DNA from: Botryllus schlosseri
Lineage: Eukaryota
Reading direction: 5' to 3'
Length of the DNA: 64,000 nt
NCBI GenBank assembly: GCA_051294905.1
Contig: CM119371.1
Coordinates: forward strand, 10,914,001-10,978,000
The notes under the pieces: model-generated
Databases searched by the model: none
What the model saw: the letters and a program-made list of their open reading frames with translations, nothing else
What the model was told of the DNA's origin: nothing
Shown: positions 10,191 to 58,740 of the stretch, one piece after another
How the letters are laid out: the number at the start of each line of letters is the position of its first letter
Position numbering within the stretch: position 1 is the stretch's first letter
Position numbers and translations under genes: made by a program

Positions 10191-10408
10191 CTACCACCAG
10201 TTAAAGCCTACACAATCGTATGTACCATTGCCAGCCGGGAGTTGAACATGAATGCGCTAACGTGAATAATTAGGTAGTTCATTATGTTGATCACTGTCGC
10301 ATATGGAACGTTAGTGTGACTGGTGTCGATGGTCTCCTGCTCAATTTTGAGGCCTGTAAAGCTCAACTCGCGAAAATGTCCCACATTCACATAATCGGTA
10401 AGGCAAGA
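10191..10408 (-). pseudogene. Degraded cytoplasmic-tail remnant of a Tyr-motif receptor
   Basis: Minus strand reads TDYVNVGHFRELSFTGLKIEQETIDTSHTNVPYATV, then with a frameshift DQHNELPNYSR*RIHVQLPAGNGTYDCVGFNWW*. Four spaced Tyr motifs, as in the intact tails in this window. Confidence 0.35.
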
Positions 10409-10762
10409 TCAAATACCAATTCAGTGCGCTTTTTCAAGTGGTCAATGCATGATGTACTGCATTGTTTTATAATACGGGTAAACCTATCGATATGATGGTG
10501 AAATGTATGTGCATTGTACAATTTTGCAATCAATTAAAAGCCGTATTTACGTGCTCAACGAGCAGCCTCCGACTCGCACAGTTTGGCCGCCATCATGGTA
10601 CATCTACAGAAAATAGTGCAGTATTCAGTTAGCTACCAAATATCCACCACTACTACTTCGATCTTCCGCGGCTATCGGAAGTAATCATGACATTTGAAAC
10701 CCTGCCCATAGCTGTTACCATATTTGCCATGATTAATAGCGAAATAATCGCCACCACTCAAT

Positions 10763-11582
10763 CAGTGTTAGGAAGAGTCGGGTCGCCTTTTCGTAAGAGT
10801 TGACTTGACTCGAATCACTTTGCAAAAATTACTTGACTGGACACGACGTTTCAGAAATGCGGATTGATTCGTGACTCAAAGCAAATTTTACCAGTCAATT
10901 TCAAGTCACCTATAGTAATCGATGTCGATTAAATCGCTGTATCTCGTATAAGTTCGGAATGCTCAATAATTGTGCGTTTTACCGAGCCTTCATTGTTATA
11001 TCACAAATAAATGATCACGAACGCAGTGATCGGAACTTACAGCTTACGTTGTAAACTTGCTCACCTTAACCTACCCTCTTGTACGGTTTAAATCGAACGA
11101 ACATAGTTTGTACGTTTTCAATTGTATAATGTAAATCATGGATATGTAGGTTGGTAGGGTATTTTACCATATCATTTTTTGAACTATCTGACGTTTCGTA
11201 TGTTATCCTGAAGTTTGGCAGATAATTATAGACTGACGCTATACCGTTATCCTTATGTCGTTTAGCAGTTCAACGTATGCATGAGTGCTACAGCGCGTTT
11301 TTGCGTGCACAATCAACGTTTTATTCGGTATTCGTTTAAAAATAAATGGGGACTTAATGTGTATTTAAAGCAGTTGGCAAAATGCAATGACTTTAAATCA
11401 TATATCGTACATTAAAAATTCCGCGTGACTTGACTGGTGACTTGACTCGTGACTTAGCTTGAATTTACTCGAATTGACTCGATTCACCTTTGAAAATCGA
11501 GTGCTTGACTTGACTCGAGTCAAAATGTGCAATGACTCGAGATGACTTGTGACTCGAAGGCAGTGACTTGATCCCAACACTG
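10763..11582. mobile_element. hAT-like non-autonomous element with GACTC/GACTT subterminal repeats
   Basis: CAGTGTTAGGA...TCCCAACACTG ends; dense gactcgagtc-type repeats; related fragments at ~39190-39650 and ~51350-51570; no TSD seen. Confidence 0.65.
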
Positions 11583-13266
11583 ACATATAGTGTATTTCGT
11601 TCTTGATGTTGTGTAATAACGGGTCAAGCTCGCAGTAGAGAGTCACTAAATTTTCACAAACGGAAAGCTGAATATTTCGAGCAAATTCTTGTAACAAAGC
11701 AACTAAAATTTTTTAGATTGTCAATGCGCATACTCGTTTAGTGTTGATTTATTACGATGTCAGCGACCTGCATAGAATGGTCCGAAGTTGAAATGCTAAG
11801 AATTTCAACGAAAGATGTTATAATGTCGTGAAAATTTGAAATTTATGACAAAGGTTGACAGTGCAGAACCTACCAAGGTTTGTTTGTGAACTTGAACATC
11901 CAAATTTCTGGGGTTCACATACAGAACGCGAACGTTAACCTCACTTTCACACCATCCCTATTAATTACCGCCACCCTAATATCGCAATGGTCGCTTCGTG
12001 CATCAACACTCGGCGGATTTGCTATAATGTATCTCATCCAAAGGTGCGCTAGTAGGGCTAGGAAAGGACTTGTTCCTTAAAACTAAAATTTTGCTGGCCT
12101 TTTCAATGATACCTGATGTTCTTATACTATAGCAAAAATATCGCAACAAGATTGCGAAGACGTGTGAAACGGCGGCCTCAAAATATGATATTTGCGTATT
12201 TCAGTTCATTATGCAAATTCCAAGACTGGTTTGAGATGTAAATCAGAGTATAAATCCAAATCAATAATTTATATCGTATCATTCCCGAGTAATAGTCCTA
12301 ACTCTTAGCCTTACTCTAGCCCCAAACATAACCACAACTTGAGCTATCCCTCTAACCTCCCCTCAATCCAACCCTAACACCTAGTCAACAAAAGTCTGTA
12401 TGTTCAATGCCGAACCAGGTGAAGATGGTGCAGGAGAGAACTAAATGTACCTGTTTCAACACTACAGTGAGTTGGCACCTTTGATGTACAAAAACTGATC
12501 GCTCTCGAATCCAAAAGATCAATTGTTCTTCTTTACATCGCCGGCCGGAAATATTGGTGTCAGCGTTAACGAACCAGATCGTGCATGATTTTCACAAGGC
12601 TTCACTGTGCTCGTCTCAATAAAGGGAATAGTTGTATAAAACTTGACCCGGAAAGAATTTCTATTCGTATTTCGACTGAAATCAATGTGCCGTTTTATGC
12701 ATTTTATATCACTGCAGTATGTCTGTATCTGACCGATCGTTTGTATGTATGCTCGTGATGGATTTTTATTATAAGTAACAAGATAATCAAAACATATTGC
12801 CAAATTCTGATAGCTTGCAACATAAAGGTTAATAAGTCTGTCAGAAAGTAAGAATGATTCAGTTAGCGATAGAGTTAATAGCGATCGTAGGCTGCAGTAG
12901 CGAGAGGGTTAATGCGCGGCAAAAAAGGGTTAATGAATCTACAGCTGCAGTGTGAAAATTCTATCTTTTGAAGCTTCATTTTGCCCCCGAAAGCGTATAA
13001 TACGCCGGGCGATCGCTTCCTATTTTGTTGACTGGACACTGGACAGGTTCAAGTGTCGCATGCTATCGTGTCGTATACCCGGTATCGCATCTACCTTTCA
13101 ATTCTCTCGAATGTAGCATTTAAATTAAAATATACAAGCAAACACTATCTCTTTGAATTCAAAACCTGACATGGTTTCACAAGCAGTCTGTATAAAATCG
13201 GATAGAGAATGTTTCCCAACAGGTGGGTCGCTAAGCGTTCAGGTGGGTATCAGATAATTTCTAGAT

Positions 13267-14397
13267 CAGAGGTCTCAAACACGCGGCCCGCGGGCCGCAT
13301 GCGCCCTGCCATAGCATTTTGTGCGGCCCGCGACGACATTTTAGATTTTTATTAATTTGACGATATATAAGTGTCACACATATCTTTTCAGGTTATAAAG
13401 TGAAAATTTCCTCTAAAACTGCTTCGAAAGCCTTAACTATTCATCAAACGTCTCTATCACATCAATTGCAAACGTCACCATGCAGTGGAAGATTCACTAT
13501 TTCGCCACATTTTCAATTCATGATGACAAAACCTGACCCTTAGACGATTCGTGTTGAAATTTGTGAGTTGGATTTGGGCGCGACCTTTCTTAGAATCACT
13601 CAGACTCGGGCTAACTCGATGGGAAAATGAAAGTAACTTTGACGCAACAAATAGTAATAGATCAGAAGGTCGCCGCTTGGTATTTCGCTAACTATTAAGC
13701 AAGTAGTTATGGCAACCATCGGCAATCTGTTAGTTAGATCTTCGGTCGCTAAACCATATGTTACTAGGGCCACTTAAAGATTCCGAGTACCGTAGTGGTA
13801 CGCTCCAACGATGTAACAGCAATACGTCGTCCGGTGTTCCGACATTTCAATCACTAGGACAGATTCATTAACATATTTATATTTTTTCGGCTCCTATATT
13901 TGAAGATATTTTGCCATGAGATTATTAGCCTACTTATCAGAAGTATACCCGAATCCTGGATTGGAATTACAATGCTCAACTTGAAAATGTTTTGATATCA
14001 GATCAGTCTCTATTATTAATCTGACAAATTCAAAATACTCATAATAGCTGAAAAATTATAACCCGATAGCTTTTATGATGGCATCATACATTTTTCCACC
14101 CATATGGTGTCTATATTTTATAATTAATCTATATCAAGTACAACAATAATTCTATTCAAATAGTTATAAATGTTATGATTCTTTTCGTGCCAGTCCTAAA
14201 TTGATACAGGAGTAAATCACATTTGGACGGTGTGTGTTTACTGTCAGTCTGCTGGATCGGCTCACTTTCATTAGGACAATTCATTGGCGACAAATAAGGC
14301 CTACTTGGAAAGACATAGAATACCCCTATAAATGCTGCGGCCCGCGGCGTCGTCAAAACTGGAAAACTGGCCCGCGAGCACATTTGAGTTTGAGACC
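13267..14397. mobile_element. hAT (Charlie/Buster-like) MITE
   Basis: CAGAGGTCTCAAACACGCGGCCCGCGGGCCGC at the start, GGCCCGCG...GTTTGAGACC at the end; right terminus degraded. Confidence 0.65.
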
Positions 14398-15188
14398 GAA
14401 AAGGTTAGCCACTCTTGGCCTAAGGGTATGAAACCCGGTGGTGCGGAACAATCAGTCAATGATACTTCGGCACATGTCGTATATTCCTCCCCAGAACACA
14501 TCAAATCCTTAGTAATTCGGCGCACCTACAACGAATTACACAGTATTGCCAGAGAGAACGCCTGTGACAGAACCTTGGCCCCACAAAACACTGCATTTAA
14601 GACCTGAATCTCACCGCCCATGTAATCTGCGTCACCCAGTACAAATATGACCCTGGAGTGAAATAATTCACACTGTGAAGGAATGTGAATGTTAAATCGC
14701 GTGCGTCTCGAGAAAGGAGAGTTTCTTTTAGTTTAGTTAGCACGTGTGAGCTCTACCAATATTAGATTAGTAGCGACAATCCTAAACTGACGCAATGAAG
14801 AAATTATGTTAAACAATTTCATGAAGGCTCAAGCGGTACGAGCGCTAAAACGGTTGGGAAACAATGATCTATAATGCGTATTCTTGTCTCCTTGATACAC
14901 TCGTATTCTCTTATTGTCGCGCAATTGCACTTGTGGGCGTGTGGTTTAACTCGTTACTCACACGACTCGTTAAAATCGAATTATGTTCTCATTCGTTCGG
15001 ACATCTCATGGTAGGTCACACAATGAAAACAGGGCATTGTAAATGGCGGGTCGCAAATAGTAAATGGTTGGCATGCTCGAAACACGATATCGATAAAATG
15101 TTTGTAAAACAAATTTCAAGTTTTTTCATCACCATGTCATATAGTCCCGCCAATCAACACTGGTAAGCTCGAGCCCCCAAGCGAAAGT

Positions 15189-15408
15189 TTATCCTTCAAC
15201 GACCTCGTAGGTATGACCACAGGCTTGTGCAGAATTGGTAGCCAAATCGATCCCCCATTCATACGCATTTTTTTCTTCTAGTTTCGCTCCAGAAGAAATC
15301 TGATCGTTGTCATACGGCGATTGCTCTTGCGGTCCATCCAATTCGTAAGTTTCGTATTCGTTCACCTCTGAGTGAGCATTTGAGCTTCCGCCTTGTTTAC
15401 GTCCATTT
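15189..15408 (-). CDS. Gene A exon 6: cytoplasmic tail
   Basis: ttttaag|A AAT...; NGRKQGGSSNAHSEVNEYETYELDGPQEQSPYDNDQISSGAKLEEKNAYEWGIDLATNSAQACGHTYEVVEG*. Confidence 0.82.
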
Positions 15409-18400
15409 CTTAAAAGCAGAGAACTGTCCTGCTTTAATGTATAGTGCGACAGTTGCGGCCCTGGCTAGAATGCAAATCGCTAGGTCCGATAAACTTTAGC
15501 TATAAAGTGGAGCAATTGGCATATTGTGACGTAACACGCAAATGATGTCACTATAAAATTGACAATTGTTCTCTCATGAGGCATTGTCGTTGCTATCGTT
15601 CTATTGTCTTCGTATATGTCTTCAAAGATCAATTCTAAATAGAATCGTAATCGACTACTTCCTGATTTTGCTGTCATGGTATTCGTAATTGCGTGATTAA
15701 AAAGTAATTGTAATCGCAATCGATCACATTCAGGTAGTAATCACCCCATGTCCAGTTACGATTGCATTTACTAATATTCCCTCCTGATGATAGTTGGTCG
15801 AGTTGCTCTGACGGAACTGTTTGTTGCAATTATCCATACATTATGCAAAAATGGGTAATTTTCAGAAATTGTGAAAAGATTTGCAACGTTTTTAGTGATG
15901 ACGTCAGTTGCAACTGAAACTCACCTAATGTATATCAATATGAAAATTCCAATGAAAATCAGCAGGAGGAAGGTTGCCACCGATGCAATGATTGGAATAC
16001 TAGCTTCGAAACTTTCGGAATCCGTGCCTGAATAGATTGAATACACTACTTATCCGCTTCAAAATAACAATGTATCCAAGTGAAATCCAGTGTCGCACGG
16101 ATACTGTATTCGTTAGTTTAGTATTTATGCTGTTTCGAATTCTATTGTCATTTTGCACCAGATTGATATTCTTAATTACGAATCGCTTGCTCAACTTTTC
16201 GCACGACCTGTATTCGTCTCCGATTTTCCCAAGAAACCCCTTTGTATATCGGATGTCGCTAGCGCGTAGATCAGTGTTTCTCAACCTTTTTGTCCTCACG
16301 GACCCCTTTCGAACCGTCACGGACCTCCGCGGACCATCAGAAGTTGTAGTTCAAATTTAGCTCAATTATCATGCAAGCGTCATATGCCTTGTGCAAATAA
16401 CACCTGTAAGCTAGTGATAACCAGCAGCAAATGTCGTTTTTTGAAAATAGCATCATAATACTATTTATGTAGAAATTGGGTGGACTTTTATTTGAAAGCG
16501 ATTTCTGTAGCTGCATTTTTTGAAGTACGTGATCGTATATCGAAAATCCGCGTCTTCAAATTGATATGAACGATTGCCGAAAATCCATTTTCGCAAATAT
16601 AGAGGATGGCGAATGTAATAATAACGCGTAACGCGTCCAACGAGACATTTGGGTATAATTGCAACGTATATGGAACCGTAAGTGAGAAAAAATATTTTGA
16701 ATGAACATATAACGTCCAGTCTAGTCATTTCTATCAAGCCTCACATCTTCAAGTTATTACGGCATACTGGTTATGTATATCACACGACTAAATGGGTTTT
16801 TGCCAAAAATTTGAAGTCACCCTGATTGACCTGCACTACTCCAACTTTTTTCCTTTTCCGACAAACCAAACAAAACTTCCAATCTGTTGATGTGAGTCCT
16901 AAAGTTTTAGCAGCGATGAATTAGGGTAACTGCCTCGTGATTTTCCTAATTTAATGAAATACAAATTAGGTTATGAACTATTTTACAAATTTAGAGGTTT
17001 CGTGGATCCCATTAAATTGCTTCGCGTAGCGACGGTTGAGAAAAACTGTCGTAGATAAACCTTTAACACAGTGGTTCTCAACTGAGGGTCCGCGAAACCT
17101 CTAAATTTGTAAAGGGATTGATAACATAATTTCTTCTTTTTAAATTAAGAACAGCATGAGACAGTTTCGCTTCACAATAGCTAAAACTTTAGTCCTCAGC
17201 TCATTAAAATGGTCGTTTGAGAGGAAATATCCGACTGTGCAAACTTATTTCAGTTGTCAAATTACCAATAGCCCGCCGATGCAAACGTATTGCTGTTTAG
17301 ATATGTTTTTTGGGGCTTATGGAAAAATGAAATGTTGGAGATAACATTTTGGATTTGGAATTGTCAGTCTCAGCAAGTTAGTAAACAGTCGTTTGAACAA
17401 AAGGCCTGAATTTTTTCCTAATCCGTCCCAATGACGAAATTTAAACATCGCCACGAAATCCATTTTCTCCTTTGATATAACCACTAAACAGACCCATCTT
17501 CAAGATGAGATGCTAGCTAGAAATGACTAGGCTGGACATGATATGTTCACCACCGAAAGCTGTCGTCGGAAGCGTTACGCGGTAATATTACATCCGCCAC
17601 CAATATACCTTTGTGTAAATGGATTTTTGGCACTCATTCATATCCAATCGGAGACGCGTATTTTCAAGACAATAAATACAGCTGCAATATTCATTTCGAA
17701 ATTATAAAAGTCCACCCAATTTCTACATGTAGTGTTATGGTATTTTAAAGAAAAGTCATTTTGTGATGTTTATTACTTGGCTGCAATAAATAGTTGTACG
17801 AGACAGTTGACGGTTGCACGATAATTGAGTTAATTTTGAACGAAACCGTGAGGGTTTCCGCGGGGGTCCGTGGTGGCCAAATTGGGTTCGCCACGACCAG
17901 GGGTGGGCAATTATTTTTCTCCGCGGGCCAAATGAGAGCTTAAGTAATGTTGGCGGGGCGAGTCAGAAATTTTACCGAGATTTCTAGTATACACTAATGG
18001 GTAACGTTGGATGCCCTAATCGCGCGAAGCGCAGAAATTTTCAATAATTCATGATCAAATCGGTCAATAATATTGCTATATTTTGTAACCTCTCTCAGCC
18101 CACTTACTCAGTTCTACTGCTATAGCTGAGTGAGGTGTTGTCTTGGAAATATTCAGGGGGAGGGGGCGTTGGTATAATTAGTTCGTAACATGTTGTTATT
18201 TCGTGACTTCCCGTCTGCCACGTGAAACAATATTGAAAGCGTACTAAACTAATAGACGCACACAATTCCAAATTAGAATTTCTTCACTGCCAAATATTGC
18301 CTATGGACAATTGGACATCGTGGTTTTTTGTCAACATAAAGGCAGTGCTTTTTGGTATTCCGGTTTTCTCGCTGTCGAACATTTTCCCTTTATTTAGTTA

Positions 18401-21400: not shown

Positions 21401-24400
21401 CTGCTGCTACCAAGTATCTGTACAAGGGTGTCTCATATTTAGACAAGGATAGAACAGGACACCTCTTCCATAATCCATACATTTGCCAAGCATAGTAATG
21501 TGAAGAGTCCGATGTAATCCATCTTGAAACACTGTCACGTGAATGTGGCTGTATACGCTTGTAGAAGCAAACGAAGTCCCAGTTGACAATATTGATAAAA
21601 GTTGCTTGAAGCTATACCCAGGACCAGAAGGAACACAGACAGCTTCATGTAGCCACCCTTTTCAAAGTTATCATCTTATTGATAAGCGTAACAGCAGCGT
21701 GATTCCAGTGTAGAGATCGAAGTTGTACACATGTATATTGAGTTCACTCCGACCGGAGGTATCTATTTCCTTCAGAAACAACATAAATAAGAAACCAGTG
21801 ACGGTCAAATGTTATAACGAATCAACCATGGGGATATTATTGGCCAATAAGTTGCAAGGCAGTATTCTATGAGGGTACCAACAAGTCGACGATGGTCCGT
21901 GCATGATTTCTTAGAATGTGAATGATCTTCTACTTGCCAAAATACCGATACTATAAAAATATGCAAATCGAGGATTAGTTGCGAGATTACATTATGCAAA
22001 TCTTATCTGATAAGCTTTGTGATATGTCAGCAATAACCAAGAATGATGATGTGGCTGAAGCGGATCAGGAACCTACTCCGAATGTTTAAAGAAAGTTCTC
22101 AAATACCAAATGCGCACCAGAACAACACTTATATGTTACACCAAAAACGGCGATTTGTTATATAGGTGTTGCACTAAGGTGTATGTAAAATATTGCAAGT
22201 AGCTGTGAGCGCAATAAACAATGGTTTCTGATGCCGTTTGTTGAGATTTGTGCTGATTTTTAGCTCCCGTGAATGCATTTAATCGAAGAAAATTCAACAT
22301 GCGTCAAATAAGCCACAAGGTAGTTCTAGGTAGTTCGAAGTTACGGTAGTTCTAGTGTTAATTGTATATTCTATTTTTGTACCTCCAATAGTTTTTCTAC
22401 TTTTATTCAATTCATCGGCACAATTTGAACAGTAGATGAACAACTCCATACCAATTCCCGTAACTTCGACGGCGCCTGTAGATTCAAGTTGACCCGCCGT
22501 TGTTATCATGCTCAATGGTGTGGATATATATGGAGTATCGGCAGTGGTCGTGGTGGTCGTGGCGGTGGTTGTTGCAGCGGCAGTATAGGTCACCATGCTG
22601 TCTATCACAAGAATGACGAGTAAGACATCACTGCGATTGTTAAGTATTGTGTCGGAAGGAAAAATCTATCAAGATTGTTTCCTACAGATTATGAACATTT
22701 TCATATGGCTGGCTTGGGTAGACCGGAAACTCGTGTTATTTAATTGAAATTCAATATGCAAAATCCAAAATTTGATGATCTCAGGAGAAAACAAACAGTA
22801 GCACCTCAATAAAGTTTAGGCCTTGTAATTATTATGTTACTATGGTACGACATCACGGCTGTATTGATATATCACATGTAAAACGTTCCACAAATTTTAT
22901 CAAATACCACTTTTGATTTGAGAAAATCAGAAATTCAACAGCTGTAATTGCCTCACTAAATGATGAAGTAGAGGAGGATTTTTCTCAACACCAGCGCTAC
23001 GAAGTCACCAGTGCGGCCAGACAGAATTCATTTACGTCATCCCTAAAATTCGAAGTAGGTCAACTTGGTTTTTGAATTGATCGGCACACCTCCCAATATT
23101 GACTACTATAACTTGTTACCAGCGCATATTTCTTTGCTTTCGGACAAAAATCAATTTTCGCTACTCGTGAGCACGTCGATAATATATGTAATCATCTATC
23201 AGATGGGTTGGCACACTAAGGCTAGCGGGCAGCTTGTGGCCATGACATCATTTTGTACGGCCCGCGAAGGCATCGACAATCGTATTAGAAATATTGATAA
23301 CATGCATAATAAAAATCTAATTATTGGAGCAACTTGATCAATTTTTTTCTAAGATATTTCATCGTGATATTGATACAGTTACAATATTAATATTGTATTT
23401 TTGATTTTATTGTTCGTGAAATAACCCTACCTCGAGCCCACGCATTTTAACATGTTTCGATTGCTAAACATCCAAGAAAACCATATCGAAAATGAATTAG
23501 CTCGGATCACAATTGTGATTTTAGAATATAACTCCAACTGTGCTGTAGTAGGAAAAACCTCTCCCGTTCTCCATATGCGCAGTTAAGTACAAATCATTCA
23601 TTTATTTCAGTCCCGGAAAGACGGGTTTAAAATCAATACAAAAAGCGAAAAGTTGAAGACGACTGCTTTGGAATCAATAAAATAACAACTGATGGATACT
23701 TCGGTTTCGGCGTCAGAGGTAACGCAATGCATATTACTTTTCATAATATGACATTATTGTTATGAATTCGCTTGCTGCAATTTGAACACCACCTCTATCC
23801 GAACATTCTGATTACAAGCATAATTTCTCAAATTAACCCAATTAATCAAAGCAAAAGCTTATAAAACTTCGTTAATGTTTTCCACGAAAGTGTGTTATCA
23901 TCAAGCCGATATTTAAATTGTTTTTGGTATACATATAGATGTATTTTATCAATTTCTTTGGTTAGTATATGATTATTATCACTATATAATAAATGAAAAC
24001 TTGCGCATTGGCTTATAATTCCTAATATTCAATAATGCGGCTCGCGAATGGTTTCAAATGTTGAATGTGGCTCGCGAGCTGAAAAGTTTACCCACCCCTG
24101 ATCCATCTCATGACCGATTACCGAATCCCGTTATCATAACGACCACTGCCAAATTAACGAAAGTCGCACCGTTTTGTAGTAGGTATTTGTTCGCTATTGT
24201 TTCAACGTATTCCTTTAACCAATAGTTTTCAGCCGGGATGCTGAATAAACGATTTCGGAATATCGGGGGTAAATGAGGTAGAGTGGATTGCCATCCACAC
24301 ACAACAAAAGGTAAATTCTGATTAGCATTACGGATGCTGAGATATTTAAATGGGACACGACAATAGGCCTAGCCGATAAACAAGCCCGATAGATGCCAAA

Positions 24401-26772
24401 ACGACCAACGGCAGTCCCGTATCAGCCAACAGCCACATCCGTCCGATGCCCGGTGCACTAGCGTGTGATTTACACCTATTCGGTTGTTTTTTAGGCGCTC
24501 TGTCCTTGCTCTTAGTGTTCGTCATTCAATCACGGTACTGTAAAAACGGACTGAAATAAAAATATCCCACACTTTGACATTTCGGAACATGTCATGGACC
24601 AAGACCTTTCTTGGAAGGTGGGGAATTTACCATCACCTCTAACTTCCAGTATAGCGACTAAAATATCAATAGGAATAGGACGTTGTTCATATTTGTCCTT
24701 GATGTTTTTGCGGCATATACATCGACTCATGATAGACATACAAACGATGTTAGCATATGCTAGGGTTACCATACGTCCTCTTTTAAAGGGATTTGTTCTC
24801 TTTTTTCCATAAATTGAAAGTGTCCTTGGAGGACGCCTAAATGCCCCCCTTTTCGGGAAATTCTTCGCTTATATCTAGAAAACGTAATAAAATGCGATCA
24901 AGTATTGGACCTGGACACAGCGATCATCAGAGTTTTATAAAAAAAAAATCGGGTAAAACGAAGTGGAGGCCTTTTTTGTTAGTCAACTCAACACCACATA
25001 TTATCGTAACAAAGCGGGTAATTTGGGAGTCGGAAGTGATAACATTTTATTAGTCAACACTATCGGTCGAAAAGTTGTCCATATCACCAGTTTTCTTTTC
25101 CGGCGCTGGAGATTTCCGGAATTTTAAAACGTGTCATCTTTTTCGGATCTCAAATTATGCTAACCCTAGCATATGCAATATGCATAACATGAGTTCATGA
25201 TGCGCATATGTCGCTTCACAAGGGGTGTGCAGAAATGGCCTTGTAAGGTTTTCAAAGTTTTCCACCATTTCTCTATTCTGTCCCGTTTATGCTGAGCGCC
25301 AAGCAAGGACGTCATGAATCCCATTGCTACTAATCAGGTCGAACTCACGATCTACATTCGAGAAGCAGGGCGCTCCGCCATTACGCTATCCTCTCGTGTT
25401 CATCACTGGCGATAAGACCGTGATATTGAGGCTGAGCCATCACAATATGGGGCTGAATAGCGATATGCCGGACTTCGATGACCTTTGGAATCTTTCAACT
25501 TCCTACTCGGAGTAATATAAGTGATAGGGTGTCACGAACTAGCTATGTTGCCATCTTAGAGGGTGCCACAAAGTCAAAAGATTGTGAACCATAGCTTGAA
25601 ACTCTGACATTCATCATATTCAACCAACCTTGGGTATCACACTGGTATTGAACTTTGAGATAGCTTCCCGAATGACTGCAGTATTCACCAAACACAGATT
25701 TCGAAGCTTCTAGCACACATGACTTGCGATCTTGGCAAGTCTCTTTCACTATCTTCAGGCTACCCGGAGTCTTACAAGTACTCGTCCTTGATAAACCGCA
25801 CCTATCACAGGATCATAAAGCTGGTATCGATTCTAAACTTGAAATTTGCTATGTGCGACAATGAAAGATTATGACAAAATGAAGCGCTATCGATATTTCA
25901 CAATAATATCATGCCGGGCAATTTTGAAACTTTACCGATATGACTGAGTTTACAACAAAAATGAGGTAGTAAATGTTTTGGAGATAATTGTTCCTCGGAA
26001 GCACCTCGACTGAGATCTGTCAACATATGTGCCACACTGACTGCGGATAATCCCCGAAAAGGGGGCGAATAAATAGTAAAAAGATATGTGAAAACACCAC
26101 CAAAGAACACAGACCAAGTTTATAATCATTATTATAAAGCTGAAATATCACAAAAAATACATCGATACGAGCTGGGTGAATCATCAAGAGAATGAACTCC
26201 GCTAATAAAAGCCGAAGGAATTATACTTGCTTTCTTCAAAAATTAATGCGTTGCCAGGCCCGTCTATTTAATGAATTTTTTAGCTGGGGGATCAAATCGA
26301 ATAGACAAATCAAATAATATGAATTAATGTGTTTGATAATTTGAGCACATAATGCAATTAGCAAAATGCCTCTGGCACGTTCCGCTCAGCGTCAATTCGA
26401 TATATATTCCATCAAATTGTCATTTCACAAAGTCATGTCGCCAGACTCAGGCAAAAGTAGTAATATAGAGATTTTGATTAGCGTTTCGTCGTAGAAGTAG
26501 ACTTCTGGAGTGTCATAGATGCGAATTTCCTTACCTGGAAAGTATTGATAGTATTCCATAGTTCGCATTTGTGATATTCAAAACTCCATCATTTTTGCAC
26601 TTTATTGTTTTCAGACTACCTGGACAGATGCTCTCGGTAATCATCTTTGTATGCTCATGGTGCTTTAGGACATTTATCGACAAAAACAAAACTGCAAAGT
26701 CAAGTCAGTAAACGATATACTTGTCTGGCGATCAAGAATAGTATTACTGAGCAATAGTAACCAACATATCAT
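15189..26772 (-). CDS. Gene A (6 exons, 275 aa): type I membrane protein with signal peptide, SUEL/rhamnose-binding-lectin-like domain, Thr/Ser-rich stalk, TM helix and Tyr-rich cytoplasmic tail
   Basis: Exons 26772-26748, 26691-26535, 25801-25629, 22601-22452, 16027-15925, 15408-15189. All introns are GT-AG, phases 1,2,1,1,2 join without stops, and the total is 828 nt. Domain order is coherent. Confidence 0.85.
15925..16027 (-). CDS. Gene A exon 5: transmembrane helix
   Basis: attcag|...|gtgagt; GTDSESFEASIPIIASVATFLLLIFIGIFILIYIR. Confidence 0.88.
16272..17048. mobile_element. hAT MITE in gene A intron 4
   Basis: CAGTGTTTCTCAACC...GGTTGAGAAAAACTG; TSD gcgtagat/tcgtagat. Confidence 0.82.
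17069..17890. mobile_element. Second copy of the same MITE family, inverted relative to 16272-17048
   Basis: Starts CAGTGGTTCTCAAC; internal blocks are reverse complements of the adjacent copy (e.g. ataaaagtccacccaatttctacat vs atgtagaaattgggtggacttttat); distal end replaced by another element at ~17898. Confidence 0.75.
19048..20408 (+). mobile_element. Composite hAT element: 115-bp mini-element plus transposase C-terminal remnant plus second right end
   Basis: TIR CAGGCCGTGTTATTTTTGGCAT; its reverse complement ends at both 19162 and 20408; perfect outer TSD gccatgag. 19752-20066 (+) encodes ...FEGLKTFCG*LTTFFPSTATVEADISQTRWARNEFMRN*ADLSLEALLQCKRF, resembling a hAT C-terminal dimerisation region. 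Confidence 0.85.
20652..22357 (+). mobile_element. Decayed piggyBac transposon
   Basis: TTAA|CACTAGAACTA...TAGTTCTAGTG|TTAA; subterminal inverted repeat gaactacctagaactacc; plus-strand transposase remnants (TKYLYKGVSYLDKD, NKKPVTVKCYNESTMG, ARQYSMRVPTSRRWSVHDF) with stops and frameshifts. Confidence 0.85.
22452..22601 (-). CDS. Gene A exon 4: Thr/Ser-rich mucin-like stalk
   Basis: gtgatag|...|gtatgg; DSMVTYTAAATTTATTTTTTADTPYISTPLSMITTAGQLESTGAVEVTGI; phase 1-1. Confidence 0.82.
23202..24100. mobile_element. Degraded hAT MITE in gene A intron 3
   Basis: Right end AAAGTTTACCCACCCCTG with GCTCGCGA subterminal motifs; left end degenerate. Confidence 0.6.
24761..25168. mobile_element. hAT MITE with TAGGGT ends (Blackjack-like)
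   Basis: TAGGGTTACCATA...TATGCTAACCCTA; perfect 8-bp TSD gcatatgc. Confidence 0.82.
25629..25801 (-). CDS. Gene A exon 3: C-terminal half of SUEL domain
   Basis: gtgatag|G TGC...; CGLSRTSTCKTPGSLKIVKETCQDRKSCVLEASKSVFGEYCSHSGSYLKVQYQCDTQ; SUEL cysteine spacing and VFG..C...YL.V.Y.C ending. Confidence 0.9.
26535..26691 (-). CDS. Gene A exon 2: end of signal peptide and N-terminal half of SUEL domain
   Basis: ctttgcag|...|gtaagg; LFLSINVLKHHEHTKMITESICPGSLKTIKCKNDGVLNITNANYGILSILSR; ANYG motif. Confidence 0.88.
26748..26772 (-). CDS. Gene A exon 1: start of signal peptide
   Basis: ATG at 26772, MICWLLLL, then a 56-bp GT-AG intron containing a TACTGAC branch-like motif; joins in phase to give MICWLLLLILFLSINV. 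Confidence 0.65.
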
Positions 26773-29439: not shown

Positions 29440-29585
<146 letters not shown>

Positions 29586-38484: not shown

Positions 38485-38767
38485 TCAACGATTCCCATAG
38501 ATAATGTTCTCCTTCATGGAAGCGCCTTTAGCAATACCTTCCACCTGCTGTTCTGCAAACGTGAATGGGCCGTGCGATTGGGGTGGATTCTTTTGATTGA
38601 TGACGCCGCCCGAATCTTCTCGGTAAGTGACCCCTTCCTCCGCCACTTCCGCGTACGTCGGATCCATTTCAGTGAGAACGAACTCTCTGTCTTCTCGGAT
38701 AACTCTTTGTCTGCTTCTTTTTCTAGCCAAAGCAATTTGAATTTCATTGGAATTTTCTATAACTGCC
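38485..38767 (-). CDS. Gene C terminal exon: cytoplasmic tail with Tyr motifs
   Basis: Phase-2 AG acceptor (alternative in-phase AG 12 nt downstream); AVIENSNEIQIALARKRSRQRVIREDREFVLTEMDPTYAEVAEEGVTYREDSGG...MKENIIYGNR*; joins the TM exon at 40733 in frame. Confidence 0.7.
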
Positions 38768-40732: not shown

Positions 40733-40832
40733 TTCTTGTACAACATCACGATGACCACTACCCATAGAATCGCAACAAGTCCACATGCCACTATTCCGAC
40801 CATGACGCCTGGCTCTAACTTCGATGCGAGAC
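40733..40832 (-). CDS. Gene C transmembrane exon
   Basis: tttttag|...|gtaagt; GLASKLEPGVMVGIVACGLVAILWVVVIVMLYKK; phase 1-2, like the gene A TM exon. Confidence 0.8.
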
Positions 40833-49338: not shown

Positions 49339-49348
49339 TTATATGCGA

Positions 49349-51201: not shown

Positions 51202-53019
51202 TGCGATAACCATAGCAGAAAATCATCACTTACGCGGCATGATAGTTATTCAAGTTTCAATATATTTGACAACGATATATGCAATATTGAAGATTGGCTG
51301 GCTGGCTCGATTTCAACCGACCGACTTCTTGTGTGGCATTCGATATCATGCCAGAGTAGAAAATCGAGTTGCAAATTACTTGCAGTCGTAAATGAGCAAA
51401 CCATCATGACTCGAACTCGGTCACGAGTCTTCACACTGAGTCAGACTCGGCCATTAGCACAGTGACTTGAAGTCGGACTTGACTCTTTTGTGTGTTGAAA
51501 GCAACTCGACTTCACTTGAATCAAAACCACATAAGTATAGTTGACTTGTGACTCAGAACCGTGTAACATACTTTCCAGTCATCTCTGATCTAAATACTTA
51601 GGCCTTCTTAGCACAACAATTCGGAAAGGTTGCTGGCAATTTTGGCTAACAGCCTTCAATATCCAACCGTGAGTGACTTCGACTTTGAATACTTTTTGAA
51701 AATCTTTCCATCCGACACAGCAACGTGAAGAAAATGGACTAACTATATGTCAAAATCCTATCAGAGACAACAAAAAATAGTTTTTATGCTAAACGCACTA
51801 ATATTAGTGCTGTCATTCCCAAATTTCAATAATGTCTGCCTAATTACTATCGAAAAATCCTACTTTCTGCTTCGACGATTATCTACTTCCTTGTAAATCA
51901 CGGTGTTGAGTACTCGGCTATTGTTCCCGAAATGAATATTTTAATTGGTCTTTCAGTGACCTCCTATAAGACTGGTCTGCGGACCGTCAAGACGTTCATG
52001 GACTCCAGTTGAAATAACACAACCACTCAACTACCATACACAACGTAACTCATCCACATATTAATTGAAGTGTGTATTTTCTACGGCAGGGGTCACCAAC
52101 CTTTTTGCACCCGAGAGCTACTTTTTGATACTGATTGATGCAACGGGCACCATTTACTCCCGCCGTTTACCCTCCTGAATTTCCACTTCGATATCCATAG
52201 GGCAGTAATCACATTGCAGTAAGACTTCTTTCCAAGACAGTCTTGTAAAATCAAAACATCTCATTTCAACTAGCTCTTCACTGGCATTTATTAAGAAATT
52301 ATGAATTACTTAGCACCATAGCACCTATTTGTATAAATAATGCAACAGTCAACTCAAATCAAGTCAACTTTGGACTGGACAGTGGACATCTTGTTATCTC
52401 TATTTATATCAGTCAGTGGGAAGGCTGGCATTGCATGTTATCAGCTATTGCGCTGTACTCTGGTATGTAACTTGAAACTGCTACTCTGAGTGAGTCTTCC
52501 AGATGTGCATCAGTGAGGCGTGTTCTGTGCTTGTTTTTGATAAAGTTCATGTCCGAGAAGGCTGATTCACAACGATAAGTTGAACCAAACATGCTTGCAA
52601 CCTTCATAGCTGCTGCGCATACACCACTGTACTTTTCCGTGTCAACAAGGCACCAAAAGTTTGCTGCAGCCTAGTGGGCTTTGAGGTGGACGTCACTTTG
52701 CAGTGTAACAATTTCAATCTCTAACTGTTCAGCATCCATGCTCAATGTTGCACTTAACTGCTCAGCGATGTATGATATGTCCACGTTCATGAAAGGATTA
52801 GAAAGGAACGACACACATGGCTCAAGCTGATACAGGTCAGAAAACCTGTTCTCAAACTCTTGACCAAGTCTATTTATGGTCTGACAGTACTTTCCTGCAA
52901 CTTTGTCAAAAGCCCCCGATGCAGAAGCATTGTCTTTCAGCACTATCTGCAAAGATGGAAAGTGCAGCACTTTTTTCTTCTGTATATGCACTGAGAAAAG
53001 GCTCAACTTAGCTTTGAAT

Positions 53020-55328
53020 CAGTGATGAGCGGAGTCTGCTTTTCGAGACTCCGAGTCCCTCCGACAACTTTGGTCTCTGAGGCAAAGTCCCTCCGACTCC
53101 GGGGATCTCAATCCCAGACTCCGAGATAACCCGAAGAATCTTGTCCAGTCCCCGAAATATATTCAGACCATTGTCGAAGAATCCCAATCGATGTTTTCGA
53201 TAGCCTGTCTGATATTCATACCAGTGTTTTTAGTATCTGTGAATTGCCGAACAGTCGCCACATTACTTCTGAGAGTCAAGTTCTCTCCAACAAAATGGAC
53301 AGTCAAGCTAATAGAACTGCGACCCTTTAGATCGGTCCACATATCTGTGGTGATGCCAGCCAGCCCATAACACTTGATAGCAACTCTTAGTTCCTCTGAC
53401 AGCTTCTGCTTCAAAGATGAAGCCTCCTCATCGAACTTACGTTTCACCGTAAATCTGGATGGCAAAACGTCTTCTGCACAACACCACGGCAAACCGGCAC
53501 TTCTTCGGTATTCTCCACCCGGCGATCAGTGTTCCCCATGATCACCTTCTCCTTTGATTACTCGCTTACTTGCATTTCAACTGCGATCAATTCTTCTTAC
53601 AAGCTTCGATATGTCTTCGAAGATGCGACGTACCACTTGTCAACTTGTGATGCTTTAGCTGAACATTGCAATTTTGACATCTCGCAAACCCAGTATACTG
53701 GCCGTTATTATCATGCAGCATCAGAGTGAAATCCTTCCACACGTCACTCTTTTTCTGCGTCTTAGTGAGTAACCCACTTGACGTCGACGGTGCTTCAGCC
53801 ATTATATTAAAACGACGAAGGAAGACCAGTCAGATCGAACTAACTACCACTAACACCACTGAAATCGACGATCACATCACAGGTTTCAGTAAATTAAGTT
53901 CCGCATCGCCATGAAACAGTTTATGGAACTGCACTGCACTAAACATACATGATGCATCACTGACGCACCGATCGACGCTCCTTGGAGTTGACTAAATGAC
54001 TAGTGACTTCCAATTTTGAAGCTGATATATGATATCTGGAATTTGGAGTCTGAGACAGACCAGCAGCAGAAACTTGATTGTGGTGCTGATTTTTCTTATC
54101 ACATCAAAGTCATTTCTCAATCAAACCAAACATTACATGACGAAAATTCAGAAGAGTTCTGGATGACTGACTACGTCAATCAATATTGAAGGAAGCGTAG
54201 TTGAGTTGATGCGAGCAGTGCAAAGCAGACGGTTGTAGTTATTTAGTGTGGCTGTTCAGAAATTCGGAATATTCTGTTTTTACAGGGTAAGATCAGCTTA
54301 CCTTAGTGAATTATGTATTGTTGAAATCTTTAAAGCGGGCTTAGATGCTGGTATGCCTCTGTGAGCGGATCTTACTAGCGAAAATTCGTCGCAATGTCAT
54401 TAAATCATGTAACACATTGCATAAGTTATTATTGTTTCCATCCAAATACTTGCTTGTTGTATGTATATTTCTCACAGATATAAAGGTAATATTGATGTAA
54501 CACTTATTATCGATATCTCTCACTGCAAATTGCAAGTACGATGAAAGTTGCGAAAAGTTATCACAAAAGTGGTATCGGATATTATCTTGTTTCAACTGAT
54601 ACCAACGTTGGGAATACATTTTCACAAAATGGACCTATTACTATATTGAATGTCATCAGGATAATGGGATATATTCCGTTATGATCATGAACTTGCTGGA
54701 AGAATCAGGGTAGCCAAAGGCTGTACCATAGGGAAGCCCCGCTGTAGGCTATGTTGCTGATTGTAAATGTTTCGCACAATTACTGGGGTAGCATGAAAAT
54801 TAGTCACGAAACAAATACGCGAGGAATATGATGTGACTATGGAAGACTGCAATGACAGCAACGTGGAAGATTCTGGAGATCTGATCTCATAATATGGTGA
54901 CATTCAGCAGTGGATTCAAAGACTGCATCTCAAGGCAGGGAGAAAATGATGCGCTGCGAACGATATTGGGTGTCTTCAAGTTTGTGAACTACAGACACTG
55001 CTCAGCGGAAATGCCTTGCTAGATCACTAGGTTACTCTCCAGTCCCCAATTGCAGTGCAGATGGCTGATTTTTATGCACTTGTCAATCATTTTTGCATGT
55101 TACCGGTCATATTCCAACTTTACAAGGTGTCAACTGTCTGTGTTTTGGTTTGTAATCAATAGTGTCTTCTGGTCAAAGCTATCGAAAGATATCGGGGGCA
55201 AAACTCACAATACTCCGTAAAACTCCGGAAAAATATCTGTTGTAAACTCCGACTCCACTCCGGGTATCACAAAATTGGCAAAACTCCGCTCCGAATCCAC
55301 TCCGACTCCGCTCCGGTGCTCATCACTG
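53020..55328 (-). mobile_element. Nested Ac/Hermes-type hAT element with truncated BED-finger transposase
   Basis: TIR CAGTGATGAGC...GCTCATCACTG; perfect TSD ctttgaat; ACTCCG subterminal repeats. Confidence 0.93.
53163..53802 (-). pseudogene. Truncated hAT transposase (BED zinc finger and first catalytic Asp region)
   Basis: SDVWKDF...ARCQNC...GTSHLRRHIEAC (BED finger), then LPSRFTV...ITTDMWTD...SLTVHF; the C-terminal part is missing. Confidence 0.88.
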
Positions 55329-56854
55329 CTTTGAATGCATTCAAAGCACTTATCATATCAGCAACAGTTTTACCTTTACCTTGCAGCTCAAAGTTCAAAC
55401 TGTTAAGTTTACCAGTAATGTCCGTTAAAAATGCAAGGTCAAATATCCACTCAGTGTCCTCCAACAGTGCGGTGTCCTCGCCTCTGCACTGCATAAACTA
55501 TTTGATCTCATCCAAAAGCGACAAAAAACGTTGCAAAATTCGCCCCCTGCTGAGCCATCGGATTTCTGTGTGCAGTAGCAGATCACCATATTCAGCTGAC
55601 AGTTCCTCCAAAAGTTTCCTAAATGTTCTGTGCTGTTTAGCTCTAGCGCGGATGCTGTTTATGATCTTTACTACGGGAGTCATTACGTGCTGAAAGCAGA
55701 TTACCTTTGCACATAAGGCCTGCTGGTGTATGATGCAGTGGTACTGCAGAAAGCTTGGGAACTCCGCGTCAGCTTTACAGAGACTAACGAATCCTGTGTG
55801 CCGGCCGATCATAGCAGGTGCCCCATCCGTAGTCACAGATACCAGCTTCTCTAGCGGCACCTTTTTTTTCATCAAAAAATCCTTCAATGCTTATAAATAT
55901 CAACTCCCTTCGTAGTTGTCTTCAGGGGCAGTAGTGTTAAAAGATCTTCTTTTGTGGAGAAATCCTCAAACACCATCCGGTAGTTAGCATCGTAGCCTGT
56001 ATGGCACGTGGTGAAATGTCTCTCCACATTGTGACGTTTTGCTGTTGCCACATTTGCCCCGCAAATCAAACATACGCATGATCCTTTCACAGTAGTAAAA
56101 AAAAAAATCCACCTCCCATCCGTCTTGAAAATGATATGTTTTCATTCTTTTTCCTGACATTTCTGCGATCGCTAACATTAGCTTGTTTGTAAAGGCCGTA
56201 TCACACGAGCTGTGCCGGCTTTGTCAGCGTTGCGATCGCCGGCTTCGGGATTGGGCATTGTTAAGTCAGAATGACCTTGGTAGGTATATGTTGCCAAAGA
56301 GTCTCGAAAGGATTTGATTGGCAAGCGAATCCACTTGTCGAGCATTATACCGGGCAGTGACAACTATTACAGAAAATGAGAAACACGGCTATCTGCTACC
56401 GAATAGTAATGCCATTTGCTCATGTGTCATTGTTCTGGATGTCCACTGTCCAGCTTCACCACCGACATTTCAAGAAGACCGTGGATAGCATTCCGCCATA
56501 TGTCGCCTGTATAGGTAGTGCTCAGCGCTCAGTCTTCGATATTTTGTGATTCGATTAGGCTACATGTTGGTATATTACTAGTTGTAATTGGGGATATTTG
56601 CTATCATCATTTTAAGTGTTTATATATATGTATTGTCATTTCCAAGTCACATGTTATAGTGTGATTTAAACAACAATAGCTAAATCACTCAATTTATCTA
56701 TTTAAAAGCTCACTGGTGATAATCTGACGAATATTGGCAAATGCTGCTATTCGATCTATTTTCAGAACAGGCTCGCGGGCACCACATCTGGTCCTCGCGG
56801 GCTACCTGGTGCCCGCGGGCACCGGGTTGGTGACCCCTGTTCTACGGTAATTGC

Positions 56855-57494: not shown

Positions 57495-57706
57495 CTTTAA
57501 GAACACAGCTGTACTTGACGTTCCAAACCCTGTCTGGACCATTTTCGCAATCATTGTAGAATTGATCCAGTATATCGCAGGAGTTCTTTTTCTGACATTC
57601 ACTATCAACTTCGGCATAGAAATCCGTTAAAGAATCACAGTCTTCGTTATTCTTCTTCTCTTTATTATTCCTTCCTTCATTATTCTTTTCTTTATTCTTC
57701 CTGCAC
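57495..57706 (-). CDS. Gene B exon: C-terminal half of a divergent SUEL-like domain
   Basis: cttatag|G TGC...AAA G|gtag, same phases (2,1) as gene A exon 3; CRKNKEKNNEGRNNKEKKNNEDCDSLTDFYAEVDSECQKKNSCDILDQFYNDCENGPDRVWNVKYSCVLK has six Cys aligning with gene A exon 3. Confidence 0.7.
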
Positions 57707-57752
57707 CTATAAGAGTACATATTTAGATTTCTTGCGGTGTATATACAATTAC

Positions 57753-57899
57753 CATACTCCGTACGTCGATACGTGACTAATCTTGCAAAAAACTTTTTTT
57801 CCACATTTTAATTGATCTGTTTTTCTATTTTCACATTCAATACGTTCGATCCGGGTTTCCATGATTTAATTTTACCCAGTGATTGCTCATCAGTAAAAT
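57753..57899 (-). pseudogene. Gene B exon: N-terminal half of SUEL-like domain, apparently frameshifted near its 5' end
   Basis: From ATG 57862: METRIERIECENRKTDQLKCGKKVFCKISHVSTYGVW|gtaatt (CE...L.C...I....YG). The frame opened by the acceptor at 57899 does not join this frame without an indel. Confidence 0.55.
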
Positions 57900-58049
57900 C
57901 TGTACAGAAAGTGAAAGTTGAACAGTATTAAAAATTAAGGTTCTGTTTCGTGTGAACACTTGTATAAAAGGTTCGCTGCGAACTCGAACGTACCCACGAA
58001 CATAGTGTCCGTTGCCGTCACAATGCAGACACACAAATGACTTAACCTG

Positions 58050-58740
58050 TTTGCGAATCTGTCTGTATATCATATTACTGGAGTGATGGTCATATCGACC
58101 GTTAACGCTACTCCCGCGGTCGGCCTCCAGTTCAAATTTCAATGCATCAACCAAAAAGTTCCTAAAATGCGACGCACGTGGCTTGCACCGACGCCCAATA
58201 TATCGCTGTAATCGGAAAAAGTGGCCTCACCGACTGAGCTACTCGGACAGCTCACATTCACGTAAAGGTGCTGGTAGTATGTGAAGTCTACACGATTTTT
58301 TGAAAATAAGAGACGTTTGCTTGTCGGTTTCATCTGACGTCGTACATAGTCCTTCTCTTGGTAAATGACCACGTGGCAGACTTTTACGAACTACATATTT
58401 TATTAGTTGGTCAACTAAGTAACGGTTTTTCGAGTAGTTCTATTTCAAGTTCTAGTTGCTGATTGAGTAAATTGAGTAGTTGTATTTCTAGTCCTAGTTG
58501 CGGATTTTGAAAAGTGATTAGTTGTAGTTCCAGTTGTGGAATTTAAAAACTGAATAGTTCTAATTGCATATTTTGAAAATTGAGTAGTTCTCTTTCTAGT
58601 AAAACACTTGAAAAAAATATCAGTTGCCGGACAACTAGAAAAAACCTGTTGTCGTTTTTGGCTAATTGAGATGCCAGTGATCTGTTGAGCGATGTTTGTG
58701 CAATGTAGAGTCATTGCTCGCGCAGAGCAATCAGTGATAA
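58050..58740 (-). pseudogene. Stop-riddled remnant with Cys-rich segment, Thr-rich repeats, eroded hydrophobic segment and Tyr-motif tail
   Basis: ORFs 58714-58445 and 58372-58139 are in the same frame: ...TTQFTQSATRT*...FVKVCHVVIYQEK...HLYVNV...SDYSDI; a shifted frame continues with GRYDHH and NMIYRQI. Confidence 0.35.

What the first reader, a model, noticed from the sequence alone, without database searches (positions are those of the whole stretch)
10191..58740. Co-oriented cluster of SUEL-lectin/TM/Tyr-tail receptor genes and remnants, a candidate diversified immune or recognition receptor family
Seen in sequence: one complete gene (A), a second SUEL exon pair with identical intron phases (B), a second TM+tail exon pair with identical phases (C), and three degraded Tyr-motif tails, all on the minus strand and highly diverged from each other. 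Established knowledge: tandem birth-and-death arrays of receptors with a variable ectodomain and Tyr signalling motifs typify innate-immune and allorecognition loci, while rhamnose-binding lectins are mostly secreted. Inference: this is an expanded family of membrane-bound SUEL receptors. None of it is apparent from the ORF track.
Basis: partly seen in the sequence, partly recalled or inferred. Interest (0 to 1): 0.8.

Follow-up and report, generated by a model that had tools for sequence, protein, structure and literature searches.

The report
Tandem lectin-fold membrane receptor genes
This stretch of animal (likely sea-squirt) DNA holds one unbroken gene model, and likely one second damaged gene, predicted to encode small cell-surface proteins with a lectin-shaped outer domain and a tyrosine-bearing inner tail; they likely belong to a fast-changing recognition-receptor family, but the supposed extra remnants are not shown to be real and an immune role is untested.

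Summary
Partly confirmed. Gene A (26772-15189, minus strand) is an open six-exon, 275-codon model: signal peptide, one SUEL domain (Pfam 46.4 bits), Thr-rich stalk, one membrane helix, five-tyrosine tail. It keeps 1 of 6 rhamnose-site residues. B (SUEL exons) and C (membrane and tail exons) are real and have A's intron phases. They are phase-compatible with no rival exons between them, so they are most likely one gene: two genes, not three. B's front end is broken here. Reads show four B-like versions in the run matching this window, four more in another run, and one B-like contig ending exactly at the predicted splice donor. No reads covered A's lectin exons at 88% likeness. The 'degraded tails' are not established: such motifs occur 5.8 times per kb, and similarity to real tails is borderline. 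A and C tails have no canonical ITIM, ITSM or ITAM. It is not EVA1C, latrophilin or Botryllus FcoR; I found no paper describing it. The scan noted sister genes before on neighbouring DNA (unchecked). Verdict: a real, likely lineage-specific multicopy receptor family; immune role inferred only.

The parts
26748..26772 (-). Gene A exon 1: start codon and first part of the predicted signal peptide; followed by a 56-nt intron
26535..26691 (-). Gene A exon 2: end of signal peptide and N-half of the SUEL domain (Cys1, Cys2, the YG motif); phase 1 to 2
   Evidence: 15.7 bits on SUEL profile
25629..25801 (-). Gene A exon 3: C-half of the SUEL domain (Cys3-Cys8); phase 2 to 1
   Evidence: Pfam PF02140 46.4 bits, E 5e-12; aligns to CSL3 and latrophilin chains
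22452..22601 (-). Gene A exon 4: Ser/Thr-rich stalk (21 of 50 residues); phase 1 to 1
   Evidence: richest S/T/P candidate (0.47) among the 16 listed phase 1-1 exons
15925..16027 (-). Gene A exon 5: single uncharged membrane helix; phase 1 to 2
15189..15408 (-). Gene A exon 6: 72-residue acidic tail with five tyrosines (one YxxV core, one YxN) and stop
57994..58073 (-). Possible first exon of B (ATG, basic then hydrophobic stretch in different frames); broken in this copy; tentative
   Evidence: other copies carry insertions at 58028-58030
57753..57899 (-). B exon: N-half of a divergent SUEL domain; four stops in the SUEL frame precede an in-frame ATG at 57862
   Evidence: two RNA reads of a B-like copy end at about 57901 (inferred from bin depths)
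57495..57706 (-). B exon: C-half of the divergent SUEL domain with a Lys/Asn/Glu-rich loop; phase 2 to 1
   Evidence: a 261-nt contig of run X8 (88% alike) stops matching exactly at 57495
52087..56839 (.). Young hAT transposon (8-bp target duplication) with a 2.3-kb second element nested in it, lying in the B-C interval; not part of the receptor
40733..40832 (-). C membrane exon; phase 1 to 2; likely the membrane exon of gene B
38485..38722 (-). C tail exon: 78 residues, three tyrosines (YxxV core, NxxY/YxN at the end) and stop
37260..37506 (-). Open phase-2 terminal-exon candidate, 81 codons, four tyrosines, no consensus motif; possible alternative tail of C or chance
   Evidence: passes the filter (shuffles gave 3 such tails in 6 strands); no significant similarity to A or C tails
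10191..10480 (-). Candidate degraded tail with an ITSM-like and an ITIM-like motif; no acceptor in frame; unproven
   Evidence: such a pair arises in 27 of 60 shuffled strands; DNA similarity to the A tail ranks within the top 6 of 490 tiles
14301..14560 (-). Candidate degraded tail; unproven
   Evidence: DNA similarity to the A tail ranks within the top 4 of 490 tiles; protein similarity p 0.87

Best explanation
The window holds an open six-exon model for gene A and, likely, one second gene made of B plus C; both are predicted to encode single-pass surface proteins with one SUEL-fold domain outside and a multi-tyrosine tail inside, likely members of a rapidly duplicating recognition-receptor family. 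Shown: the exon plan, the loss of the rhamnose site in A (1 of 6 residues), the broken front end of B in this copy, several 85-96% alike B-like copies, and splicing of one B-like copy at the predicted donor (the run's RNA status is a guess). Inferred mechanism: A's domain, held out on a glycosylated stalk, binds a non-rhamnose ligand, probably a protein; clustering lets a Src-family kinase phosphorylate the acidic-context tyrosines; these then dock SH2 adaptors (Grb2-type at YxN, others at YxxV). The receptor would act as its own signalling scaffold, not as a classical ITIM or ITAM receptor. This copy of B+C is likely a pseudogene or a signal-less variant, with working relatives elsewhere. Use in self/non-self or microbe recognition is inferred from copy number, divergence and architecture only.
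For: Open model with canonical splice sites. SUEL identity. Same intron positions and phases in A, B and C; fish and hydroid lectin domains are split differently (three exons, one exon; PMC3269628 section 7). No further SUEL half-exon above the null lies between B and C (best 2.6 bits; reversed-window top 12.6), and only a weak membrane candidate does. The B-C gap is 11.9 kb without the transposon versus 9.6 kb in A. Four distinct contigs cover B exon 2 in run X4 and four in X5; one version has an in-frame 63-to-30-nt loop change. The X8 contig covers only the exon and runs on for 55 letters past the donor. Sugar site: A matches 1 of 6 residues; 7 of 351 family domains match so few (residues from PMC3269628). 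13 of 16 changed codons between B and its copies are replacements.
Against: No read or contig covered A's SUEL exons in 4 of 4 RNA or RNA-guess runs at 88% likeness; only 6% and 3% of the two raw runs were read, and the B-like contig (87.8%) would itself have missed that cut. No read joins B to C, and no stalk exon was identified between them. A and B are barely alike (21 of 111 columns; local score 42 versus B's median 43 against unrelated family domains), so paralogy rests on gene structure. The tails are not detectably alike (p 0.10). The 13-of-16 figure equals the neutral expectation (83%), comes from 40 of 315 listed differences, and fits decay as well as positive selection. No canonical ITIM, ITSM, hemITAM or ITAM in the A or C tail. 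No tissue, ligand or signalling data.
Confidence: 0.58

Rival explanations
1. The same genes are real but serve adhesion, guidance or gamete/tunic functions, working like EVA-1 as a co-receptor rather than in immunity.
For: The known single-pass SUEL receptor EVA-1 is a Slit/Robo co-receptor, and human C21orf63 binds heparin (PMC3269628 passages). The intact tails lack immunoreceptor consensus motifs.
Against: Several recent, divergent copies and damaged copies are unlike conserved developmental receptors (established knowledge). No close relative was found in public proteins.
Confidence: 0.17
2. The array is mostly decaying: B+C and its copies are pseudogenes evolving neutrally, and A may be silent.
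For: B's front end has four stops in the SUEL frame. At least three other contigs show no gap there, so they share the spacing. One X5 copy has a 1-nt loss in exon 2. The replacement fraction is neutral. No A reads. Young transposons lie inside the B-C interval.
Against: A's six exons stay open over 11.6 kb with eight SUEL cysteines and good splice sites. A B-like copy appears spliced, and the loop change in one copy keeps the frame.
Confidence: 0.13
3. One reading: B and C are two separate genes that each lost half, and the orphan tails are relics of further copies or alternative last exons.
For: A weak membrane-like exon at 43542-43377 and a tyrosine-bearing stretch at 42600-42216 lie between B and C. 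The 14.5-kb and 10.4-kb stretches rank in the top 6 of 490 tiles for DNA likeness to the A tail. An open terminal-exon candidate lies at 37506-37260.
Against: No SUEL exon for C. Repeat tiles score as high as the remnants. ITIM-like words occur 372 times in the six frames. Best protein-level p is 0.024 among 30 comparisons.
Confidence: 0.12

Closest known systems
SUEL / rhamnose-binding lectin domain proteins (Pfam PF02140; chum salmon CSL3, PDB 2zx0; Botryllus BsRBL)
   Same: Eight-cysteine SUEL domain; A exon 3 aligns without gaps to CSL3.
   Different: CSL3 is a soluble two-domain lectin and BsRBL a released opsonin (PMC3269628, PMC5465252 passages). A is predicted to be membrane-anchored with a tyrosine tail and keeps 1 of 6 sugar-site residues.
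EVA-1 (C. elegans) / EVA1C (C21orf63)
   Same: Single-pass protein with a SUEL-type ectodomain (PMC3269628 passages); heparin binding in the human protein shows non-rhamnose ligands are possible.
   Different: EVA-1/EVA1C have two SUEL domains and are conserved single-copy genes (recalled, not from a call). A has one domain plus a Thr stalk, and B occurs in several copies.
Latrophilins (ADGRL1-3)
   Same: One SUEL domain in a surface receptor; PDB hits at E 2e-6 to 1e-4.
   Different: Latrophilins are seven-helix adhesion GPCRs with further domains; here there is one helix and about 275 residues.
Botryllus fester co-receptors (FcoR)
   Same: Type I proteins in multicopy, polymorphic clusters with YxxI/L/V core motifs in the tail (PMC11507803 results part 1; PMC12065747 passages).
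   Different: FcoR are 520-610 residues with Ig and sushi domains and can carry ITIM/hemITAM motifs. These genes use a SUEL domain, are half the size, and the intact tails lack those motifs. They may work alike but are not members.

Membership tests
SUEL / RBL domain (PF02140) | Profile score above the curated cut-off (gene A) | tested here: met
   46.4 vs 31.4 bits on exon 3 alone
SUEL / RBL domain (PF02140) | Profile score above the curated cut-off (gene B) | tested here: inconclusive
   14.2 bits on exon 2 alone, but 0 of 2000 shuffles reach its score on my profile; Atlas nearest cluster 0.92, 25% SUEL, low recognition
SUEL / RBL domain (PF02140) | Eight conserved cysteines | tested here: met
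   A has all eight; B has eight plus one extra, with Cys7 shifted by one column
Rhamnose-binding lectin (activity) | CSL3 primary-site residues E7, Y27, N74, D79, G83, K86 (gene A) | tested here: not met
   1 of 6 kept (Tyr); Pro, Lys, Glu, His, Ser at the others
Rhamnose-binding lectin (activity) | Same six residues (gene B) | tested here: inconclusive
   4 of 6 by alignment, Lys to Arg, register uncertain
Rhamnose-binding lectin (activity) | Measured sugar binding | not testable with these tools
   needs expressed protein
EVA-1 / EVA1C | Two tandem SUEL domains before the membrane helix (recalled) | tested here: not met
   one SUEL exon pair per gene in a six-frame profile scan
EVA-1 / EVA1C | FAM176-type membrane/tail region (recalled) | tested here: inconclusive
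   no such Pfam hit on the membrane and tail exons scanned separately; short pieces weaken the test
EVA-1 / EVA1C | Conserved single-copy ortholog | tested here: not met
   four B-like versions in one run; no close public relative; copy number of A itself not tested
Latrophilin | Olfactomedin, GAIN and seven-helix regions | tested here: not met
   one membrane exon followed by a stop-ended tail
Fester co-receptors (FcoR) | Ig and sushi ectodomain, 520-610 residues | tested here: not met
   275-residue model with SUEL domain versus PMC12065747 passage
Fester co-receptors (FcoR) | [quoted passage not shown] | tested here: met
   one each in the A and C tails; a common motif, 1197 matches in six frames
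ITIM/ITAM immunoreceptors | Canonical ITIM, ITSM, hemITAM or ITAM in an intact tail | tested here: not met
   none in A or C; only in unproven remnants
Polymorphic innate receptor clusters | Multiple divergent copies that differ between individuals | tested here: inconclusive
   B-like versions differ between runs X4 and X5; alleles and loci cannot be separated from contigs
Polymorphic innate receptor clusters | Expression in blood cells or contact tissue; role in recognition | not testable with these tools
   no per-cell or tissue data; no A lectin-exon reads

The most novel reading that the evidence does not exclude
A previously undescribed polymorphic receptor complex of a tunicate, built on a lectin fold repurposed for non-sugar ligands, with individual-specific copy sets. 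Its multi-tyrosine YxN tails serve as built-in scaffolds in place of LAT, which ascidians are reported to lack, and alternative last exons switch a gene between activating and inhibitory output.
Probability: 0.2. Interest if true: 0.8.

Novelty: new variant of a known kind. Interest (0 to 1): 0.5.

Why it matters
Invertebrate recognition systems keep reinventing variable ectodomains on tyrosine-signalling tails. The described tunicate examples use Ig and sushi domains (FcoR). A multicopy family that uses a SUEL fold, with the sugar site lost in some members, would be another independent solution and a testable candidate for microbe or non-self sensing in chordates without adaptive immunity. 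If the array is only decaying, it is an ordinary birth-and-death cluster.

Tried and rejected
No whole genome is held for this window, so the genome-wide paralog search could not be run. Sequencing-run search for 19500-29400: no RNA holder listed; 4 of 20 holding rows have half the words or more, all one sample; the small shares were not used as evidence. Word-seeded protein searches with A exon 3, B exon 2 and the C tail (longer proteins only) found no scoring hit among 2, 7 and 17 candidates, which is weak evidence. The full-library search with A exon 3 gave 603 hits; the best 150 are mostly multi-domain lectins at 28-54% identity. None of the 9 of 150 with an internal helix has one SUEL domain, a helix and a short tyrosine tail, but the ranking favours multi-domain proteins. 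Metagenome scan with B exon 2: 598 pattern matches, none confirmed. Scan look-ups by sequence and words found nothing. Identity with Botryllus FcoR was considered first and rejected. The stretch 20786-22336 looked like a gene but is bounded by inverted repeats. A hydrophobic exon-like stretch at 35966 lies in a dispersed repeat. An assembly error as the cause of B's break was rejected as unlikely: no indel at 57840-57899 among the 12 best-supported of 47 indels, and three contigs are ungapped there. No structure or complex prediction was run, because each SUEL domain is split over two exons and only half-domains could be submitted. Ten literature searches showed no paper on such a family; subscription journals are mostly not covered and no supplements were opened.
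Full report
Setting. The window is repeat-rich animal DNA of about 39% G+C. No whole genome is held. Earlier scan notes on this genome call it a sea squirt; I did not test that, so the taxon is a lead. I read the minus strand of nearly the whole window (52201-53899 only through ORF lists and scripts).

Gene A. Six minus-strand exons (26772-26748, 26691-26535, 25801-25629, 22601-22452, 16027-15925, 15408-15189) have GT-AG borders and give 275 open codons and a stop, with phases 1, 2, 1, 1, 2. The product is predicted to have a hydrophobic leader, one SUEL domain, a stalk with 21 Ser/Thr in 50 residues, one uncharged helix and a 72-residue acidic tail. Exon 3 alone scores 46.4 bits on Pfam SUEL_Lectin (cut-off 31.4) and aligns without gaps to CSL3 and latrophilin chains. 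The model scores 71 bits on a profile I built from 351 SUEL domains.

Sugar site. A review (PMC3269628, passages) names the CSL3 primary site as Glu7, Tyr27, Asn74, Asp79, Gly83 and Lys86. A keeps only the tyrosine. Only 7 of 351 family domains keep one or none. A is therefore predicted not to bind rhamnose. B keeps 4 of 6 by alignment, with an uncertain register.

B and C. B's exons (57899-57753 and 57706-57495) have the intron before Cys3 in phase 2 and the donor three residues after Cys8 in phase 1, as in A. B is far diverged: 14.2 bits on Pfam, 19.7 bits on my profile with 0 of 2000 shuffles as high, nearest Atlas cluster 0.92 with low recognition. A and B share 21 of 111 columns, and B is no closer to A than to a typical family domain. 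Their kinship rests on gene structure, which differs from the three-exon fish and one-exon hydroid domains (PMC3269628 section 7); I did not compare secreted tunicate lectin genes. C's exons (40832-40733, 38722-38485) have phases 1 and 2 as in A. A scan of both strands ranked the A and C membrane exons first among 17 listed rows and passed four terminal exons of 127 candidates, all on the minus strand: the A tail, the C tail, B exon 2 and one at 37506. B ends in phase 1 and C begins in phase 1. No SUEL half-exon above the null lies between them. The gap is 16.7 kb, or 11.9 kb without a nested hAT insertion with an 8-bp target duplication, against 9.6 kb in A. One gene, B+C, is the simplest reading. 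No read proves it, and no stalk exon was identified.

B's front end. From the acceptor at 57899 to Cys1 there are 64 bases, against 65 in A, and the SUEL frame holds four stops before an ATG at 57862. A possible first exon (58073-57994) has its start and its hydrophobic stretch in different frames. Other copies have insertions at 58028-58030. An assembly error is unlikely: no indel at 57840-57899 appears among the 12 best-supported of 47, and three other contigs are ungapped there. This copy is likely a pseudogene, or makes a protein without a leader.

Copies and expression. Laying four runs on 57300-58420 at 80% likeness (24 of 238 pieces shown): DNA run X4 has one contig identical to the window over 413 bases, so it may be the source sample and is not independent. 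It also has three more contigs over B exon 2, for example with 39 differences in 262 and 93 in 674 bases. One replaces 63 bases by 30, in frame. Four versions mean at least two loci if the sample is one diploid animal. Run X5 has four contigs at 57500, all differing from the window; one has a 1-base loss in the exon. Run X8 (RNA is a guess) has depth only on the exon and on a repeat. Its 261-base contig, with 25 differences, stops matching exactly at 57495, the predicted donor, and runs on for 55 letters that were not shown. Two reads of RNA run X23 end at about 57901 by bin depth, next to the predicted acceptor, with the first mate on the plus strand. So at least one B-like copy appears transcribed and spliced. 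Of 16 codons changed by the listed differences, 13 change the residue, against 83% expected at random; this is 40 of 315 differences and cannot separate decay from diversifying selection. For A, the bins 25524-26825 had zero depth in 4 of 4 runs at 88% likeness, and no listed joint (15 of 85 shown) matched an A intron. Only 6% and 3% of the raw runs were read, and an allele as distant as the X8 contig would have been missed. A's expression is unshown, not excluded.

Tails and remnants. The A tail has five tyrosines, with one YxxV core and one YxN. The C tail has three, with one YxxV core and a terminal NxxY/YxN. Neither has a canonical ITIM, ITSM, hemITAM or ITAM (definitions from PMC11507803, and recalled). 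The two tails are not detectably alike (p 0.10). The finding gave no coordinates for its three remnants; I tested stretches near 0.4, 10.4, 14.5, 37.4 and 42.5 kb. The best protein-level p was 0.024 among 30 comparisons. ITIM-like words occur 372 times in the six frames. The ITSM-plus-ITIM pair at 10.4 kb is matched in 27 of 60 shuffled strands. The 37.4-kb stretch is an open phase-2 exon candidate, but shuffles gave 3 such in 6 strands. The remnants remain unproven.

How it likely works. Shown: architecture, lost sugar site in A, multiple B-like copies, splicing of one. Inferred: the stalk lifts a disulfide-bonded SUEL fold that binds a non-rhamnose ligand. The helix has no charged residue, so pairing with an ITAM adaptor is unlikely (established knowledge). 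Clustering would allow a Src-family kinase to phosphorylate tyrosines in acidic context and recruit SH2 adaptors. Src, Syk, Grb2 and SHP homologs are expressed in Botryllus, while LAT and SLP-76 are reported absent from ascidians (PMC12065747 section 12). A recognition role is inferred from copy number and divergence alone.

What is known. SUEL domains occur in soluble lectins and in receptors such as EVA-1/C21orf63, latrophilins and PKD1-like proteins. BsRBL is a released opsonin (PMC5465252 passages). FcoR are 520-610-residue Ig/sushi receptors with ITIM and hemITAM tails. These genes fail membership of EVA1C, latrophilin and FcoR, but may work like FcoR. No close public protein was found, and ten searches showed no paper on such a family. 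Papers seen: PMC11507803 outline, passages and results part 1 of 2; PMC3269628 passages and section 7; PMC12065747 passages and section 12; PMC5465252 and PMC8878817 passages; others as listings only. No supplements were opened; the FcoR gene tables there could bear on overlap with these loci.

Earlier scan notes. Unchecked notes describe similar single-SUEL membrane genes 7.9 kb and 316 kb before this window and 32 kb and 2.1 Mb after it, some broken or sugar-blind. They fit a wider family but are leads, not support.

Verdict. The core observation is real, the gene count is probably two, the remnants are unproven, and the immune reading is plausible but untested. New variant of a known kind; interest 0.5.

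Noticed in passing
window 52087-56839 and 60466-62897: Two over 99% identical copies of a 2.4-kb hAT element in opposite orientation, each with an 8-bp target duplication; the first carries a nested 2.3-kb element (53020-55327) with a weak BED-finger match.
   Followed up: partly
window 20786-22336: A 1.55-kb element with 38-nt inverted ends inside A's fourth intron. It is covered by about 95% alike contigs in two RNA-guess runs. It holds a leader-like start near 21648 beside an 84-codon open frame, and the other copies lack 2 bases at 21613.
   Followed up: partly
window 19510-19657 (-): A Cys-rich frame scoring 8.9 bits on the SUEL profile, below the top null score of 12.6, inside a high-depth repeat.
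   Followed up: no
window 292-510 (-): A 72-codon open frame with four tyrosines ending near the window start; could be a tail or chance.
   Followed up: partly
window 43377-43542 and 42216-42600 (-): A weak membrane-like exon candidate followed about 0.8 kb later by tyrosine-bearing frames; possibly a decayed membrane-plus-tail module.
   Followed up: partly
window 29442-29581: A perfect 70-unit TC microsatellite.
   Followed up: no
window 58432-58600: A degenerate 36-42-nt tandem repeat upstream of B that translates as Thr-rich sequence; probably the source of the finding's right boundary.
   Followed up: no
window 58098-58250: A short, very high-copy repeat just upstream of B's possible first exon (depth up to 3000 versus about 40).
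   Followed up: no
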